IMG/VR virus record: IMGVR_UViG_3300049924_000079
Span: 1 to 61,334 of that record
From: a virus
Lineage: Duplodnaviria > Caudoviricetes
Direction: 5' to 3' (one strand)
DNA: 61,334 nt
This document shows, one piece after another, positions 3,701 through 9,126 of this stretch. Under the pieces are notes generated by a model. It did no database searches, was not told the DNA's origin, and saw only the letters and a program-made list of their open reading frames with translations. Each line of letters opens with the position of its first letter. Positions within the stretch are counted from its first letter, which is position 1. Both the position numbers and the translations under genes were made by a program.

Positions 3701-3951
3701 ATGAACATACACAAGAAAAATACGCAGCACTCGCCGAGAAAGACAGACAGTCTATTACCGACATGATAGACGTGGCGGTAGCCGCGCTAAGTACCGAGAA
3801 CGGCGCACTGGTGCTTCTAGTGGATGTCGAAGGACAGGGCGTAGCACAGATGCTCGCCGCAGGTAATCAGCTACTCGTGGAGCCGCTGCTGCGCAGTGCG
3901 GACGCGGTGTGCGATAGGGTGTTCAGTAACCATGCAGGAGTACTACAATGA
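3697..3951 (+). CDS. Hypothetical protein
   Basis: ATGA-coupled to its neighbours. Confidence 0.65.
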   Translation: MNEHTQEKYAALAEKDRQSITDMIDVAVAALSTENGALVLLVDVEGQGVAQMLAAGNQLLVEPLLRSADAVCDRVFSNHAGVLQ

Positions 3952-6899
3952 CCCAGCCATTCAAAACACTCCTTTGCGCCGATTTTGAGACGCGCTGGAG
4001 TAGCAAGCCTACCGAATGGAGCGAAGACCCGTTCACGCTTTCTAAGATGACCACCGAGGAGTACATCCGCTCCCCGTTGTTCCACGCCTTCGGGCTGTGC
4101 CTGCACGAGGTAGGCGCAGAGACGCCTATCCAGTGGTACTCCCACGAAGAACTGCCCCGCATACTGAAAATGTATGACTGGTCTACAACCGCTATCCTGT
4201 GCCACAACAGCCAGTTCGACGCAGCAATCCTGTCCTATGTATACGGCGTCAAGCCGTGCTTCATATTCGACACGCTGTCTATGGGCCGCGCGCTACGCGG
4301 TGTGGAAGTGGGCAACTCGCTCATGAAGCTGGCAGAAGACTACGGCCTGCCCCCCAAGGGGCGGGCTGTGCACAGCACCGACGGCCTGTTCACGCTACCT
4401 GCGCATATTGAGCAGGAGTTGGCCGAGTACTGTAAGCACGACGTGTTCTTGTGCGAGGAGATATTCGCGAAGCTGCTGTACCGCATCGACCCGCTGACCG
4501 GCGAATCTGCCGGGGAGTTTCCAAAAAAGGAGCTACGCCTTATCGACATGACGGTGCGTATGTACACCGACCCGGTGTTGGTGCTTGATAAGCCGATGCT
4601 GGAGCATGCGCTGGTGGAAGAGAAGACGAAGCTGGCCGCCGCGCTGGAGCGCACAGGTGTAGCGGAGACATCACTGGCCAGTAACGACCAGTTCGCCGAA
4701 GTACTACGCACTATGGGCGTCGCACCTCCCACCAAAGTCAGCAAGGTGACAGGCAAGGAAGCATATGCGTTTGCCAAGAACGACGCGCTGTTCCAGTCTC
4801 TGCTTAACGGGGACAACGAAGACGTAGCCCTGCTGTGCGAAGCCCGGCTCAAGGTAAAGTCCACGCTGGAGCGCACCCGCGCGCAGCGCTTCATTGACAT
4901 CTCGGAGCGCGGCACACTGCCTATCCCGCTTGCATACTACGGCGCGGCGACGGGGCGTTGGGCGGCGGCAAAAGGCGCGAACCTGAACCTTCAAAATCTC
5001 AAGCGGGGTTCGTTCCTACGCAAAGCGATCATGGCCCCGGACGGGTATCTGCTTGCAGTAGCGGACTTGTCACAGATCGAACCCCGGGTGTTGGCGTGGT
5101 TGTCGGGGTACGAGGACATGCTCGACATCTTCCGTGCAGGGGGCGACCCCTACGCTACGTTTGGCGCACAGATGTTCGGGATACCGGGGCTTACCAAGGA
5201 CACACACCCCCTGCTTAGGCAGTCGGCCAAGTCTGCTTTGCTAGGCGCAGGCTACCAGCTCGGGTGGGCCAGCTTCGCGGGGCAGTTGCTTGTGGGCTTC
5301 CTAGGTGCGCCCCCGCAGCGATACACCAAAGCCGACGCAAGGCAGTTAGGTGTGACTGCGCAGGATGTGCAGAAGTTCTTGTCATGGGAGGACAACATGA
5401 AGGCTATGCAGGAGATACCCCACACCTGTACCGAAGAGGAGCTGCTACTGCACTGCCTAGCTGCCAAGGCAATCATCGACAAGTACCGTAGCGCCGCAAG
5501 CCCCGTGACAGACTTCTGGTCTCTGCTAGGCAACCTGCTGGAGCGCAGCTTGGTAGGCGGTGAGGAGTACAACCACAAAGACGTGCTGCTGTTCCGTAAA
5601 GGTGAGATCATCATGACAAACGGCATGGCGCTACGCTATCCTGACCTGCGGGCGCACATAGACCCCGAAGACAAGAAGAAGCGTGTTGTGTACACCTACG
5701 CTGATGGTAAGAAGCGGGTGAAGCTGTACCCCGGTAAAATCTGCAACAATTGTATAGCCGAAGGAACTGATGTACTTACTTCTGCGGGGTGGGTACCTAT
5801 AGAACAGGTGTCGAAAGAAATGGCCATCTTTGATGGCGTAGATTTTGTAGCACATGCAGGGCTATCATTTAACGGAGTTCAAACATGTGTTACAGTAGAC
5901 GGTGTTTATATGACACCAGATCACGAGGTACTTACTTATGCAGGTTGGAAAAACGCATCACAACTTCAAGGACATAACCGGGAAAAGGTACGGTATTTTG
6001 ACAGCAGTGAAGCCCTTGCGCTCTGTGAAAGGCAGTTGGCAGTGGCGGATGTTGTGCGATTGTGGAAAATCCTGCGCGAAGCAAACGTCCGACTTACAGA
6101 AGGAAGCGAAGAAAGGGCGTATGCAGAACTGCGGATGCCTAACGCGACAGCTTATCGGGCAGGCCAATACGACGCACGGAATGTCGGGGCACCCCCTATA
6201 CATAGTTTGGCGCAACATGCGGAACCGCTGCTACAAAGAATGGGAGCCTGCATACAAGAACTATGGAGCGCGGGGCATAACTGTGTGCGTACGGTGGCGC
6301 GACAGCTTCGAGAACTTTTCGGCAGACATGCAGTCTACCTACGCGCCGGGGTTGACACTGGAACGTCGAAACAACGAGCGGGGGTATTCCCCGAGCAACT
6401 GTTACTGGGCCACATATACGGAGCAGGCACAAAACACACGCAACACAATACGCGCCGTGAACGTCCCGAAGCTAGCAGAACAGACGGGCATAAGTCGTTC
6501 GACGATTTACTACAGACTACAGCACGGGTGGCCAGTATCCAAGCTGAAAATGAAACCGGATTTGGGGAACGGAAAGAAAAAGCTGTATACGACATCGTAG
6601 ACTGCGGCCCCCGTAAGCGTTTCATTGTTCGCGGTGTGTCCGGTACATTTGCAGTCCATAACTGCACACAGGGCACCGCACGTATCATCATGTCGGACGG
6701 CATGTTACGTATCGACAAGGAGTACCGGGTACTGGGGACTGTGCATGACGAGTGTATCGGGCTAGTGCCCGAGGCAGAGGCGCAACCAGCGTACAAGTGG
6801 ATGCTACAGCAGATGGTACAGGTGCCCAAGTGGATGCCTGGCATACCGCTCAATGCGGACGGTGGGGTACACAAGCGATACGGTCTTGCGAAAAATTAA
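3948..6899 (+). CDS. polA: Family A DNA polymerase precursor with 3'-5' exonuclease, intein-containing (about 679 aa after splicing)
   Basis: Exo motifs DFET, HNSQFD, YCKHD; TGRW, NLQN, motif A DLSQIEPR, motif B RQSAKSALLGAGY, motif C VHDE. Confidence 0.95.
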   Translation: MTQPFKTLLCADFETRWSSKPTEWSEDPFTLSKMTTEEYIRSPLFHAFGLCLHEVGAETPIQWYSHEELPRILKMYDWSTTAILCHNSQFDAAILSYVYGVKPCFIFDTLSMGRALRGVEVGNSLMKLAEDYGLPPKGRAVHSTDGLFTLPAHIEQELAEYCKHDVFLCEEIFAKLLYRIDPLTGESAGEFPKKELRLIDMTVRMYTDPVLVLDKPMLEHALVEEKTKLAAALERTGVAETSLASNDQFAEVLRTMGVAPPTKVSKVTGKEAYAFAKNDALFQSLLNGDNEDVALLCEARLKVKSTLERTRAQRFIDISERGTLPIPLAYYGAATGRWAAAKGANLNLQNLKRGSFLRKAIMAPDGYLLAVADLSQIEPRVLAWLSGYEDMLDIFRAGGDPYATFGAQMFGIPGLTKDTHPLLRQSAKSALLGAGYQLGWASFAGQLLVGFLGAPPQRYTKADARQLGVTAQDVQKFLSWEDNMKAMQEIPHTCTEEELLLHCLAAKAIIDKYRSAASPVTDFWSLLGNLLERSLVGGEEYNHKDVLLFRKGEIIMTNGMALRYPDLRAHIDPEDKKKRVVYTYADGKKRVKLYPGKICNNCIAEGTDVLTSAGWVPIEQVSKEMAIFDGVDFVAHAGLSFNGVQTCVTVDGVYMTPDHEVLTYAGWKNASQLQGHNREKVRYFDSSEALALCERQLAVADVVRLWKILREANVRLTEGSEERAYAELRMPNATAYRAGQYDARNVGAPPIHSLAQHAEPLLQRMGACIQELWSAGHNCVRTVARQLRELFGRHAVYLRAGVDTGTSKQRAGVFPEQLLLGHIYGAGTKHTQHNTRRERPEASRTDGHKSFDDLLQTTARVASIQAENETGFGERKEKAVYDIVDCGPRKRFIVRGVSGTFAVHNCTQGTARIIMSDGMLRIDKEYRVLGTVHDECIGLVPEAEAQPAYKWMLQQMVQVPKWMPGIPLNADGGVHKRYGLAKN
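5751..6662 (+). mobile_element. Intein (304 aa, residues 602-905 of the polymerase)
   Basis: Starts CIAEGTDVLT (block A), TPDHEVLT (block B), VYDIVD (block F), ends AVHN followed by +1 Cys; removal restores KLYPGKICNN-CTQGTAR. Confidence 0.93.
5938..6600 (+). CDS. HNH homing endonuclease nested in the +1 frame inside the intein
   Basis: DITGKRYGILT..W..LCDCG..NCGC..HGMS..LY..WRNMRNRC..YGARGITVC.RW..FENF..LERRNNERGYSPSNCYWAT..EQAQN plus a C-terminal HTH; SD GAGGT at 5925-5929, 8 nt before the ATG. Confidence 0.9.
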   Translation: MQVGKTHHNFKDITGKRYGILTAVKPLRSVKGSWQWRMLCDCGKSCAKQTSDLQKEAKKGRMQNCGCLTRQLIGQANTTHGMSGHPLYIVWRNMRNRCYKEWEPAYKNYGARGITVCVRWRDSFENFSADMQSTYAPGLTLERRNNERGYSPSNCYWATYTEQAQNTRNTIRAVNVPKLAEQTGISRSTIYYRLQHGWPVSKLKMKPDLGNGKKKLYTTS

Positions 6900-6914
6900 C
6901 CAAGGAGAAAGAAA

Positions 6915-7205
6915 ATGACATTTAAAAATTGGCTTAGGACACAAACACGCCGTCTTTATTGTGCGCTAGCACACGACGGCTGGGTACGCGCAGAAGACAC
7001 TGCGGAGAAGAGATGGGTTACGGTTCGCGGACGGCGCGGTTATTTTGTCGGTATGTGCCCGAACAACTTTTCGTGTGTAGTATGTTTTCAAGAGCGAGTA
7101 CCGTCGCAGTTTGGACGCAGTGACGTTTTGCAAAACACGTATGTGGAAGTTCCGCCGTACGTCATAACTAGCGTAGCTACTAACGCTAAAGATTTTTGGA
7201 AATAA
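6915..7205 (+). CDS. Hypothetical protein
   Basis: AAGGAGAAAGA RBS. Confidence 0.65.
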   Translation: MTFKNWLRTQTRRLYCALAHDGWVRAEDTAEKRWVTVRGRRGYFVGMCPNNFSCVVCFQERVPSQFGRSDVLQNTYVEVPPYVITSVATNAKDFWK

Positions 7206-7220
7206 CCAAGGAGAAAGAAG

Positions 7221-7496
7221 ATGAAACTAGATTTTGGAATACCTCCCAAAGAGCACCGTGGCTGGCCGGGCTATGCGGACGTGGACGTAGACAAAGATGG
7301 CCTACTGGTGGTGCCCTGCGGAGCGTCTGGCGGGATGAACGAAGGACACCCCTACAGGTACGCATTGAGCGTATCGCCGTCACAGCTACTGCGCCTTGCG
7401 TGGCGTATACAGTTCCTTAAGCTGCGGTTTACTTACGCATGTGTAAAGCACCGCGTGCACTACCGTATCTGTAAGGCCCTAGGCTGTAGAAAATAG
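7221..7496 (+). CDS. Hypothetical protein
   Basis: AAGGAGAAAGA RBS. Confidence 0.65.
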   Translation: MKLDFGIPPKEHRGWPGYADVDVDKDGLLVVPCGASGGMNEGHPYRYALSVSPSQLLRLAWRIQFLKLRFTYACVKHRVHYRICKALGCRK

Positions 7497-7512
7497 AAAC
7501 AAGGAGAAAGAA

Positions 7513-7791
7513 ATGGAAATACCTAAGACATTCAAGATAGGCGAACGTGCGTGGAGAGTGCGCACAGACGGCGCGGCACTGCCTAGCGGCGTATACGGGA
7601 TGTGCTACCCACGCTATGAGGTTATCCGCGTAGCGAAGCGCGCCCCACAGGACATGACAGAGAGCTTCTGGCACGAAGTCACACACGCTGTCCTGTTCGA
7701 CATGAACCACCCGCGCTGGGACGATGAGGAGTTCGTCACGGCATTCAGCAAACGGCTTACCCAAGTCATTCACACAGCGGAGTTTTTATGA
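7513..7791 (+). CDS. Small zincin-like (HExxH) protein
   Basis: YGMC...FWHEVTHAVL...DEEFV. Confidence 0.7.
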   Translation: MEIPKTFKIGERAWRVRTDGAALPSGVYGMCYPRYEVIRVAKRAPQDMTESFWHEVTHAVLFDMNHPRWDDEEFVTAFSKRLTQVIHTAEFL

Positions 7792-8856: not shown

Positions 8857-9126
8857 ATGCCAACAAAAGCTGAAAACCGCAACTACAAAGCGGAAGCCAA
8901 GAAAGAAACCCCCGCCAGAAAGCAAGCACGCCGCGACCGCATGAACGCGCGGTACGGCTACGAGAAGGAAAATGGGGACTTGCCTACGGATATGCAGGTA
9001 GACCACATCAAAGCGCTAAGCGCAGGGGGGACGAACGGTAAGAAAAATCTACGCGCCATCCCCAAGGCCCGCAACGAATCGTTCAACCGCAAAGGCCCCG
9101 GCGGTAAGCAAGTAGGCAAAGCGTAA
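8857..9126 (+). CDS. Small HNH endonuclease
   Basis: VDHIKALSAGGTN..NLRAI...N. Confidence 0.8.
   Translation: MPTKAENRNYKAEAKKETPARKQARRDRMNARYGYEKENGDLPTDMQVDHIKALSAGGTNGKKNLRAIPKARNESFNRKGPGGKQVGKA

What the first reader, a model, noticed from the sequence alone, without database searches (positions are those of the whole stretch)
5751..6662. Intein whose homing endonuclease is a separately translated gene nested in the +1 reading frame
Seen in sequence: the polymerase frame is open through a canonical intein (C1, TPDH block B, VYDI block F, HN/C), but its roughly 200-aa middle has no recognisable endonuclease motif. The same DNA read in +1 (5938-6600) is a complete HNH endonuclease with an N-terminal CxC/CGC region and a C-terminal HTH. 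Its Shine-Dalgarno GAGGT is formed by the block B codons CAC GAG GTA (H-E-V), and its stop TAG is formed by the block F codons GTA GAC. It therefore fills exactly the slot an in-frame endonuclease normally occupies. In the examples checked, HNH codons preceding K/N/D/E/S end in C rather than T (CAC AAC, TTC AAG, TGC GAT, TAC AAA, GAC AGC, TTC GAG), which is what keeps the intein frame free of stops. Established: bifunctional inteins normally carry LAGLIDADG or HNH domains in frame. Inference: a free-standing HNH gene invaded a mini-intein, which splices the junk linker out of the polymerase, giving a dual-coding composite selfish element with uncoupled nuclease expression. I cannot confirm whether this architecture has already been published.
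Basis: partly seen in the sequence, partly recalled or inferred. Interest (0 to 1): 0.93.

Follow-up and report, generated by a model that had tools for sequence, protein, structure and literature searches.

The report
Intein with endonuclease in +1 frame
A phage DNA polymerase gene carries a self-splicing protein insert (intein) whose middle is read in a second reading frame as a separate DNA-cutting enzyme; the arrangement is real, old and widespread, though the general idea is already in print.

Summary
The polA ORF (3948-6899) runs open through a class-1 intein (5751-6662). A 220-codon ORF in the +1 frame (5938-6600) belongs to a large family of free-standing phage "HNH" homing endonucleases (phrog_374, E=1e-53).

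It is not a sequencing error. In 81 of 81 loci scored, the polymerase frame is open and the endonuclease lies in +1, intact in 79. An independent assembly matches the window with no gaps.

Selection acts on the +1 frame. Between the window and a 95%-identical copy, 30 of 40 substitutions in the overlap fall on +1-frame third positions. In the exteins, 63 of 76 fall on polymerase-frame third positions.

The polymerase frame has 0 stops where about 8 are expected. The +1 protein folds confidently (pLDDT 87). The in-frame middle does not (pLDDT below 50), while the splicing ends match mini-inteins.

A Shine-Dalgarno made from block-B codons co-occurs with the ATG (28/5/1/25), which argues for separate initiation. 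The 77 closest polymerases that could be read lack the intein.

Out-of-frame intein endonucleases are already published (dnaX, actinophages), so this is a new, very large member of a known kind. The "HNH" label rests on annotation only: no Pfam HNH hit, and an invariant Arg sits where I-HmuI has its catalytic His.

The parts
3948..6899 (+). Family A DNA polymerase precursor ORF (983 aa), open through the intein
   Evidence: PF00476 E=3e-24; phrog_17 E=2e-69
3948..5750 (+). N-extein (601 aa), ends ...KLYPGKICNN
5751..6662 (+). Class-1 intein, 304 aa: Cys1 ... TPDH ... VYDIVD ... VHN
5751..6005 (+). N-terminal splicing (Hint) lobe, intein residues 1-85. pLDDT is above 90 to residue 70 and falls to 65 by 85. 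From 5938 on it overlaps the first ~23 codons of the +1 ORF, so this stretch is truly dual-coding
   Evidence: (Mtu RecA mini-intein, E=5e-6, query 52-89)
5913..5924 (+). Intein block B, T-P-D-H
5925..5929 (+). GAGGT Shine-Dalgarno candidate for the +1 ORF, formed by Glu-Val codons after the block B His, 8 nt before the ATG
   Evidence: co-occurrence with the ATG across the family
5938..6600 (+). +1-frame ORF, 220 aa: HNH-like homing endonuclease of free-standing phage type
5980..6141 (+). N-terminal beta-rich module of the +1 protein with four invariant Cys (C40, C42, C65, C67): probable zinc ribbon (inferred)
6355..6435 (+). Predicted beta-beta-alpha core of the +1 protein (residues 140-166) with invariant R143, N154, N166
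6451..6531 (+). C-terminal helix-turn-helix of the +1 protein (residues 172-198)
   Evidence: (HTH models, E 0.003-0.1, all below their cut-offs)
6006..6560 (+). In-frame linker (intein residues 86-270): kept free of stops but no confident fold and weakly conserved
6561..6662 (+). C-terminal splicing lobe (blocks F and G), pLDDT 84-93; ends His-Asn
6663..6665 (+). +1 Cys codon (TGC), the splice nucleophile. Intein-less relatives have Val or Ile here
6663..6899 (+). C-extein (78 aa + stop) with the QGTA and VHDE polymerase motifs (motif names recalled)

Best explanation
This is a composite selfish element inside an essential phage gene. Ribosomes reading polA in frame 0 make a 983-aa precursor. 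The two ends of the insert (residues 1 to about 85 and 271-304) fold into a Hint domain. The roughly 190-residue middle is an unstructured loop. Class-1 protein splicing (Cys1, block-B His, terminal His-Asn, +1 Cys) then releases a 679-aa polymerase. Other ribosomes start independently at ATG 5938, using the GAGGT built from the block-B codons. They read the same DNA in +1 and make a 220-aa DNA endonuclease of the free-standing phage type: a Cys4 module, a beta-beta-alpha core and a C-terminal HTH. In a mixed infection this enzyme is expected to cut or nick the intein-less polA allele near ...GKICNN|VTQG.... Repair from the intein-bearing genome would then copy in the intein, the nested gene and the Cys codon together. 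Shown here: the anatomy, selection on each frame, stop avoidance, the folds, conservation of the arrangement, the patchy distribution, and the younger age of the insert. Inferred: splicing, separate initiation, nuclease activity and its target.
For: (1) The +1 frame is the selected one. Window against L004: in the overlap, 30 of 40 differences are +1-frame third positions (30 synonymous in +1; 32 non-synonymous in frame 0). In the exteins, 35 of 40 and 28 of 36 are frame-0 third positions. Six further independent close pairs agree: middle region [156, 53, 36] by frame-0 codon position, N-terminal lobe [14, 10, 59]. Across six lineages the middle is 45% identical in +1 and 24% in frame 0, over 15 pairs. 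(2) Frame 0 is kept open: 0 stops where 8.0 are expected, with no stop-free case in 5000 recodings. The same holds in six related loci, while free-standing homologues have 11-23 stops. (3) The arrangement is conserved: 81 of 81 loci have frame 0 open and the endonuclease in +1, none in frame 0 or +2, and 79 of 81 have no stop. The same holds in APSE-1, Shewanella phage SFCi1 and Caulobacter phage GB2A, and in SNF2 and DEAD-box helicase genes. (4) Folds: the +1 protein has pLDDT 87. In the intein frame, pLDDT is above 90 for residues 1-70 and 84-93 for 271-304, but below 50 for 114-269. The 23 best Foldseek PDB matches listed (ranks 1-26) are inteins or intein-like domains, and the profile hits the Mtu RecA mini-intein at E=5e-6. 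(5) Separate initiation: GAGGT or AAGGT after the block-B His co-occurs with ATG five codons later (28 both, 5 SD only, 1 ATG only, 25 neither; Fisher p=1e-10; 59 of 70 distinct sequences scored). A second start, ATG or GTG ten codons after the His, is used by the others, including APSE-1. A +1-frame stop lies 3 nt before the first ATG in 19 of 70 sequences. (6) Mobility: 77 of the 80 closest polymerases have an empty site and the other 3 could not be read. The intein differs by 2-6% between the window and L004, against 12-15% for the exteins. Third-position differences are 5 of 83 against 63 of 191, p=6e-7. GC3 of the intein N lobe is 0.27 against 0.74 for the N-extein. (7) No assembly error: an independently assembled contig is identical with 0 gaps, and a variant contig from another study also has 0 gaps.
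Against: No experiment or expression data: no RNA run holds the stretch, so translation of the +1 ORF, splicing and cleavage are all inferred. The nuclease identity is weak. There is no Pfam HNH hit for the window protein or for any of 56 relatives. Foldseek found no PDB match for the whole model. The only link to a solved HNH enzyme is a non-significant profile match to I-HmuI (E=1.5), which puts an invariant Arg where I-HmuI has its catalytic His. The SD/ATG association is not corrected for shared ancestry, and Glu-Val also serves the intein. One relative (L005) has the ATG without the SD. The RNA around the start shows no special structure (z=-0.2), and no internal promoter-like site stands out. 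The lower divergence of the overlap region could partly reflect double constraint; the argument for recent transfer rests on the non-overlapping 187 + 62 nt. The 80 loci are the best of 455 or more matches to a query that included the linker, so relatives with other middles are under-sampled.
Confidence: 0.8

Rival explanations
1. Hitch-hiker: the +1 gene is an independent selfish endonuclease that uses the intein loop only as a safe harbour. Its target lies elsewhere and it does not mobilise the intein.
For: Its relatives are overwhelmingly free-standing genes (1087 phage records; BFVD matches). One relative (L141) has a free-standing copy just downstream of an intein-less polA. The intein sits at four different codon positions of the polA motif, which is looser than classical intein homing.
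Against: The intein and the nested gene are found together, always in +1, in three different host genes and at all four polA positions. On a quick tree with only four free-standing outgroups, the nested genes fall on one side of a branch with SH-aLRT 97. The intein ends and the nested gene share the same low divergence between the window and L004.
Confidence: 0.1
2. Programmed frameshifting: ribosomes slip +1 near block B and back near block F. The endonuclease would then be made as an in-frame domain of a canonical intein, not as a separate protein.
For: An SD-like GAGGT lies just upstream of CTT ACT. This loosely recalls the prfB +1 shift site (recalled from memory, not tested).
Against: Frame 0 would not need to stay open if ribosomes left it, yet it has 0 stops in 81 of 81 loci where about 8 are expected. 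A +1-frame stop lies 3 nt before the first ATG in 19 of 70 sequences, so there is almost no room to shift. A start codon is present at one of two conserved positions and co-occurs with its SD. The +1 ORF ends at different places, once 13 nt beyond the intein, so there is no conserved return site.
Confidence: 0.03
3. Artefact or relic: two compensating indel errors, or a dead endonuclease frame that happens to be open.
For: Nothing beyond prior suspicion. Two of 81 loci (L043, L056) do carry one stop in the +1 ORF, so copies can decay.
Against: The same frame relation holds in 81 of 81 independently assembled loci and in isolate phage genomes. An independent assembly shows 0 differences and 0 gaps. 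Purifying selection on +1 is clear.
Confidence: 0.01
4. The in-frame middle is itself a functional domain (a new kind of intein insert), and the +1 conservation is secondary.
For: The in-frame middle aligns over its full length in dozens of polymerases. A long helix (residues 85-117) is predicted at pLDDT of about 60-65.
Against: Substitutions in the middle hit frame-0 first positions and change its amino acids (32 of 40). Identity there is 24% against 45% in +1. pLDDT is below 50 for residues 114-269 even with 46 sequences. There is no family hit.
Confidence: 0.04

Closest known systems
Cyanobacterial DnaX intein with an out-of-frame LAGLIDADG endonuclease (Phillips, DeSimone & Gogarten, bioRxiv 10.64898/2026.09.14.751524; first proposed by Gorbalenya 1998 according to that text)
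   Same: A contiguous intein whose extein frame stays open across a nuclease ORF read in another frame. There is low dN/dS in the nuclease frame and relaxed constraint in the intein frame. The authors also interpret it as secondary invasion of a mini-intein.
   Different: A different nuclease family (LAGLIDADG, not HNH-like), a '+2 ORF' instead of +1, a cellular host gene instead of phage polA, and a different intein. Those authors call the architecture a rarity. Here at least 455 viral stretches match, of which the best 80 were examined.
Non-canonical actinobacteriophage inteins (Gosselin, Arsenault & Gogarten, bioRxiv 10.1101/2025.01.02.630785)
   Same: Phage inteins whose HEN is encoded outside the intein frame. 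The in-frame middle has no recognisable structure while the alternate frame folds. The proposed origin is free-standing HENs.
   Different: Their out-of-frame types are an endonuclease VII-like HEN in frame 3 and antisense LAGLIDADG or VSR-like HENs; their HNH inteins are in frame (section 8). I could not see their supplementary tables, so I cannot exclude that one of their inteins is of the present type.
ShiLan domain: hidden out-of-frame HNH in a mycobacteriophage methylase (Arsenault et al. 2025, PMC11855218)
   Same: A same-strand HNH ORF is hidden in another frame of an insertion that keeps the host frame open.
   Different: No splicing domain was detectable, so the insert stays in the protein. 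The proposed start is a GTG with no RBS (leaderless initiation). Here a complete intein surrounds the ORF and an SD is present.
Fractured genes: split inteins with a free-standing HEG between the halves (Dassa et al. 2009, PMC2677866); mobE in Aeh1 nrdA
   Same: A free-standing-type endonuclease gene sits at the canonical HEN position of an intein and is translated on its own.
   Different: There the host gene and the intein are broken into two ORFs and trans-splice. Here the intein is contiguous, because the invading ORF carries no stop in the host frame.
APSE-1 P45 DNA polymerase intein with nested CDS P46 (RefSeq NC_000935.1)
   Same: The same intein family, the same +1 relation and the same nuclease (45% identity). 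The nested CDS is annotated 'HNH endonuclease' inside 'DNA polymerase'.
   Different: The intein is inserted three codons upstream (GKS|CEN...). The start is a GTG ten codons after the block-B His. The annotated P46 begins at an internal ATG and omits about 80 codons. I found no held paper that reads P46 as the intein's endonuclease; the 1999 description is not held.

Membership tests
Intein (class 1, Hint fold) | N-terminal Cys/Ser nucleophile | tested here: met
   Cys1 at 5751-5753; Cys in 70 of 70 distinct family sequences
Intein (class 1, Hint fold) | Block B T-x-x-H | tested here: met
   TPDH at 5913-5924; T55 and H58 invariant in 46 sequences
Intein (class 1, Hint fold) | C-terminal His-Asn followed by Cys/Ser/Thr | tested here: met
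   VHN|C at 6654-6665; HN in 69 of 70 (one SN); +1 Cys in 70 of 70
Intein (class 1, Hint fold) | Hint fold | tested here: met
   In the AF2 model, pLDDT is above 90 for residues 1-70 and 84-93 for 271-304. The 23 best listed Foldseek PDB matches (ranks 1-26) are inteins or intein-like domains, best E=2.9e-3, prob 1.00. The profile hits the Mtu RecA mini-intein at E=5e-6
Intein (class 1, Hint fold) | In-frame insertion at a conserved site, with intein-less alleles | tested here: met
   L133 reads ...GKICNN|VTQG...; 77 of 80 close polymerases have an empty site and 3 were unreadable
Intein (class 1, Hint fold) | Protein splicing | not testable with these tools
   Inferred from intact motifs and the essential host gene
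HNH (beta-beta-alpha-Me) homing endonuclease | Match to a curated HNH model | tested here: not met
   No Pfam HNH family at E<=1 for the window protein, or at E<=0.01 for any of 56 relatives; NCBIfam gave none. Only PHROG families labelled HNH endonuclease match (phrog_374 1e-53, phrog_3377 2e-46)
HNH (beta-beta-alpha-Me) homing endonuclease | Catalytic His at the end of the first strand | tested here: not met
   A weak profile alignment to I-HmuI 1u3e (E=1.5) pairs its D-H with the family's D/E-R. R143 is invariant in 56 sequences and no His is invariant. The alignment is not significant, so this result is provisional
HNH (beta-beta-alpha-Me) homing endonuclease | Structural Asn and metal-binding Asn/His on the helix; beta-beta-alpha topology | tested here: inconclusive
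   N154 and N166 are invariant. Strands 140-143 and 155-158 and helix 160-165 are predicted. There is no significant structural match to a solved HNH enzyme
HNH (beta-beta-alpha-Me) homing endonuclease | Site-specific DNA cleavage | not testable with these tools
   -
[quoted passage not shown] | Nuclease ORF between the splicing blocks, in another frame or strand, with the extein frame kept open | tested here: met
[quoted passage not shown] | Purifying selection on the nuclease frame; in-frame middle without a fold | tested here: met
Fractured gene / split intein with free-standing HEG | Host gene and intein split into two ORFs | tested here: not met
   One uninterrupted 983-codon ORF

The most novel reading that the evidence does not exclude
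This would be the largest and oldest lineage of dual-coding inteins, with a single origin. One free-standing, His-less beta-beta-alpha nuclease gene happened to lack stops in its -1 frame, lodged in a mini-intein, and has stayed in +1 ever since. The composite has spread through family A polymerases and into SNF2 and DEAD-box helicases. It lands at any of four neighbouring codons of the polA motif GGK-x-x-E-N-x-x-Q-A and brings its own Cys codon. On this reading, the insertion point is set by where a Cys scar is tolerated rather than by exact nuclease specificity, and out-of-frame endonucleases in inteins are common in phages rather than rare.
Probability: 0.4. Interest if true: 0.75.

Novelty: new member of a known kind. 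Interest (0 to 1): 0.6.

Why it matters
The finding gives a clean natural case of two proteins read from about 660 shared bases, with clear and opposite selection in the two frames.

It supports the view that inteins acquire their nucleases from free-standing homing endonuclease genes. It sits between contiguous canonical inteins and the "fractured genes" of Dassa et al.

Recent preprints call the architecture rare. Here at least 455 IMG/VR stretches match the intein. All 80 examined are of this type, and isolate phages with laboratory hosts (Caulobacter phages RW and GB2A, Shewanella phage SFCi1) carry it. Separate translation, splicing with a 190-residue junk loop, and homing therefore become directly testable.

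There is also a practical point. Gene callers and annotators miss or truncate the nested gene (for example APSE-1 P46) and label the precursor simply as a long DNA polymerase.

Tried and rejected
**Searches and scans that gave nothing**
- NCBIfam: nothing for either frame.
- ESM Atlas: only unnamed viral clusters; a few carried NUMOD1 or I-HmuI_NUMOD-like modules on a minority of members.
- Search for longer, in-frame fused forms of the nuclease: only 3 proteins of 399-417 aa and no intein-sized fusion. The tool itself calls this weak evidence.
- Genome-contig scan with the helicase P0189: no relative found.
- RNA fold around the +1 start: z=-0.21, no special structure.
- Promoter scan of 5500-6950: 1 site against 1.2 expected. 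The 6 terminator-like sites (1.3 expected) were not pursued.
- No RNA holder is listed for the stretch, so nothing can be said about expression.
- Run X12 laid nothing, and X2 covered only 5655-5805.

**Readings considered and rejected**
- The compositional gap between the intein N lobe (GC3 0.27) and the nested ORF (GC3 0.66 in its own frame) as a sign of a mosaic origin. The gap exists across the family (means 0.53 and 0.66, 61 loci), and the ban on T-ending codons can explain part of it.
- The prfB-like frameshift idea; see the rival explanations.

**Tools and papers not available**
- Gorbalenya 1998 (PMC147447) and van der Wilk 1999 (PubMed 10489345) are not held. I know them only as cited by others.
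- Supplementary files of the Gosselin and Phillips preprints were not seen. They may list inteins of the present type.

**What I read of each paper**
- Phillips 2026: abstract and section 17.
- Gosselin 2025: abstract, sections 8 and 15, and passages.
- Arsenault 2025: abstract, section 22 and passages.
- Dassa 2009: passages.
- PMC7313666: passages.
- PMC549080: one reference-list passage.
- PMC3185647 and PMC6293099: passages; not relevant.

**Rows dropped**
- One search scored 59 of 70 distinct sequences; 11 were dropped because my pattern did not find D-H at the expected place.
- One search used the 6 same-length pairs at 1-20% divergence, each locus once.
- One search used 61 loci that had at least 150 nt of upstream extein.
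- could not read 3 of 80 sites.

Full report
**The object.** The window is a 61,334-base viral record that CheckV estimates to be 96% complete. A 983-codon family A DNA polymerase ORF runs from 3948 to 6899 (PF00476 E=3e-24; phrog_17 E=2e-69). It contains a 304-codon insert at 5751-6662. The insert has Cys1, T-P-D-H (5913-5924), V-Y-D-I-V-D (6585-6602) and a terminal V-H-N, followed by Cys. In the +1 frame an ORF runs from ATG 5938 to TAG 6598-6600 (220 aa). GAGGT (5925-5929) lies 8 nt before the ATG and is made of the Glu-Val codons after the block-B His.

**Which frame carries information.** The in-frame insert has no Pfam, NCBIfam or PHROG match in its middle. Only its first ~75 residues hit PHROG families. 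The +1 ORF matches phrog_374 (E=1e-53) and four more PHROG families labelled HNH or restriction endonuclease. It also has 151 separately called relatives at E<=1e-10 in the large protein collection.

A 95%-identical copy of the intein sits in a polymerase (L004) whose flanks differ by 12-15%, with no gaps. In the exteins, 35 of 40 and 28 of 36 differences are at polymerase-frame third positions. In the overlap, 30 of 40 are at +1-frame third positions, so 30 are silent in +1 while 32 change the in-frame residue.

Six other independent close pairs show the same flip. By polymerase-frame codon position, the middle gives [156, 53, 36] and the N-terminal lobe gives [14, 10, 59]. Across six distant lineages the middle is 45% identical in +1 and 24% in frame 0 (15 pairs).

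**The polymerase frame is kept open on purpose.** I recoded the +1 protein 5000 times with synonymous codons drawn from the phage's own usage. This gave a mean of 8.0 stops in the polymerase frame and never zero; the sequence has zero. The same holds in six related loci (expected 5.7-11.7, observed 0). Four free-standing homologues have 11-23 stops in that frame. Before +1 codons that begin AA, AG or GA, the preceding codon never ends in T (0 of 53, against 26 of 166 elsewhere).

**Folds.** With a 56-sequence alignment, AlphaFold2 gives the +1 protein a mean pLDDT of 87. With a 46-sequence alignment, the intein frame has pLDDT above 90 for residues 1-70, falling to 65 by residue 85, and 84-93 for 271-304. 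It is below 50 for residues 114-269. That model's 23 best listed Foldseek PDB matches (ranks 1-26) are inteins or intein-like domains (best E=2.9e-3, prob 1.00, about 100 aligned residues). The intein profile finds the Mtu RecA mini-intein at E=5e-6. The Hint N lobe extends about 23 codons into the +1 ORF, so that short stretch serves both proteins.

**Not an error, and not a one-off.** The best phage hits of the +1 protein lie inside the DNA polymerase genes of Shewanella phage SFCi1, the APSE phages and four Caulobacter phages. In each, the hit is +1 relative to the polymerase. In APSE-1 a nested CDS is even annotated as HNH endonuclease.

Counting the window as well, 81 of 81 loci have the polymerase frame open, 81 of 81 have the nuclease in +1, none have it in frame 0 or +2, and 79 of 81 have no stop. 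The query included the linker, so relatives with other middles are under-sampled.

An independently assembled contig of the probable source run is identical over 5400-6900 with no gaps. A variant contig from another study also has no gaps. The same composite, again in +1, sits in SNF2 helicase genes (L092-L094) and DEAD-box helicase genes (L125-L128). L130 carries a mini-intein relative without the middle.

**How the +1 protein is made.** Among 59 scorable sequences of 70 distinct ones, GAGGT or AAGGT directly after the block-B His goes with an ATG five codons later. The counts are 28 both, 5 SD only, 1 ATG only and 25 neither (Fisher p=1e-10; not corrected for shared ancestry). The sequences without this pair have an ATG or GTG ten codons after the His. 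APSE-1 is one of them, with AAGGG upstream of its GTG. A +1-frame stop lies 3 nt before the first ATG in 19 of 70 sequences. This leaves no room for a frameshift fusion. Together with the open polymerase frame, these facts favour independent initiation. This is inferred, not shown.

**Mobility.** Of the 80 closest polymerases (67-97% identical in the N-extein), 77 have an empty site and 3 could not be read. None has the intein. L133 is as close to the window as L004 is: 303 against 299 of 339 N-extein bases. L133 reads ...GKICNN|VTQG....

Empty sites have Val (51), Ile (25) or Cys (1) where intein alleles have the +1 Cys, so the element brings its nucleophile codon with it. In the parts of the intein that do not overlap the +1 ORF, third-position differences between the window and L004 are 5 of 83, against 63 of 191 in the exteins (p=6e-7). 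GC3 of the intein N lobe is 0.27, against 0.74 in the N-extein. Across 61 loci the N lobe is on average 0.20 lower than its extein. All of this fits an insert that is younger than its host gene and moves horizontally.

**What kind of nuclease.** The label HNH comes from PHROG annotation and from BFVD structural neighbours named HNH or HTH homing endonuclease, or AP2-domain protein. No Pfam HNH model matches the window protein or any of 56 relatives; only HTH models match, all below their cut-offs.

A profile search of PDB sequences reaches I-HmuI only at E=1.5. That alignment lies exactly on the beta-beta-alpha motif and pairs I-HmuI's Asp-His with the family's Asp/Glu-Arg. R143, N154 and N166 are invariant in 56 sequences, as are four Cys (40, 42, 65, 67); no His is invariant. 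I therefore call it HNH-like. It is possibly a His-less variant, and its activity is untested.

**Comparison with what is known.** Nuclease ORFs outside the intein frame have been described for:
- the cyanobacterial DnaX intein (Phillips et al. 2026 preprint, abstract and section 17, which credits Gorbalenya 1998);
- actinobacteriophage inteins, with an endonuclease VII-like HEN in frame 3 and antisense LAGLIDADG and VSR-like HENs; their HNH inteins are in frame (Gosselin et al. 2025 preprint, sections 8 and 15).

A hidden out-of-frame HNH without an intein is the ShiLan domain (Arsenault et al. 2025). Split inteins with a free-standing HEG are the fractured genes of Dassa et al. 2009.

In eight full-text searches I found no paper describing a same-strand +1 HNH-like gene in a polA intein, or reading APSE-1 P46 as the intein's nuclease. 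The 1998 and 1999 papers and all supplements were out of reach. My verdict is a new, unusually large and well-supported member of a known kind.

**Origin.** On a quick tree the nested nucleases lie on one side of a branch with SH-aLRT 97, apart from the four free-standing ones included. The polA ones form a group at 99. The sample of free-standing genes is small and the root is not inferred. A single rare capture of a gene that happened to lack stops in its -1 frame would explain the constant +1 relation. The simulated chance of that is between less than 1 in 5000 and 1 in 500 per gene. This is inference.

Noticed in passing
L012-L091 flanks (window site 5748-5753 / 6660-6668): The same intein family sits at four different points of the polA motif GGK-x4-x5-E-N-x8-x9-Q-A, and the +1 Cys always replaces a variable residue. 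Counts among 70 distinct sequences: position 4 (6), position 5 (17, including the APSE-like ones), position 8 (38, including the window), position 9 (6); 3 are in SNF2 helicase. On a quick tree of the nested nucleases the polA site changes at least 12 times. One well-supported group (SH-aLRT 99) mixes positions 4 and 8.
   Followed up: partly
L141:2034-2705: A free-standing homologue of the nuclease (15 stops in its -1 frame) starts inside the last codons of an intein-less polA. That polA is the only one of 77 empty sites with Cys instead of Val or Ile at the insertion point.
   Followed up: partly
L092/L093:501-3605; L095-L123: An SNF2 helicase gene carries two inteins, the second of the +1-nuclease type. 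Twenty-nine related viral loci have a gene about 1.3 kb long, without either insert; their best-segment identity to it ranges from 53% to 96%.
   Followed up: partly
L130:1728-2129: A mini-intein relative in a DEAD-box helicase gene matches intein profile positions 1-74 and 267-297, with no middle and no nuclease ORF.
   Followed up: no
L043, L056: Two of 81 loci have one stop inside the +1 ORF while the polymerase frame stays open. The pair L035/L043 also shows many second-position changes in the middle ([11, 9, 1]). These look like decaying nuclease genes in inteins that remain intact.
   Followed up: no
L001:2741-3163 (APSE-1 P46): The annotated nested CDS starts at an internal ATG and omits about 80 N-terminal codons that are homologous to the family. 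A GTG with AAGGG upstream lies at L001:2513.
   Followed up: partly
window 6899-6917, 7205-7223, 7497-7515: Three consecutive small genes are each preceded by nearly the same motif, CAAGGAGAAAGAA, a few bases before the ATG. This is a much stronger ribosome-binding site than the GAGGT of the nested ORF (read).
   Followed up: no
window 5751-5937: GC3 of the intein N lobe is 0.27, against 0.74 in the N-extein. This is the third-largest gap among 61 family loci.
   Followed up: partly
window 8857-9126: An 89-aa ORF whose sequence (…VDHIKALSAGGTNGKKNLRAI…) looks by eye like a small canonical HNH protein. It was not tested.
   Followed up: no
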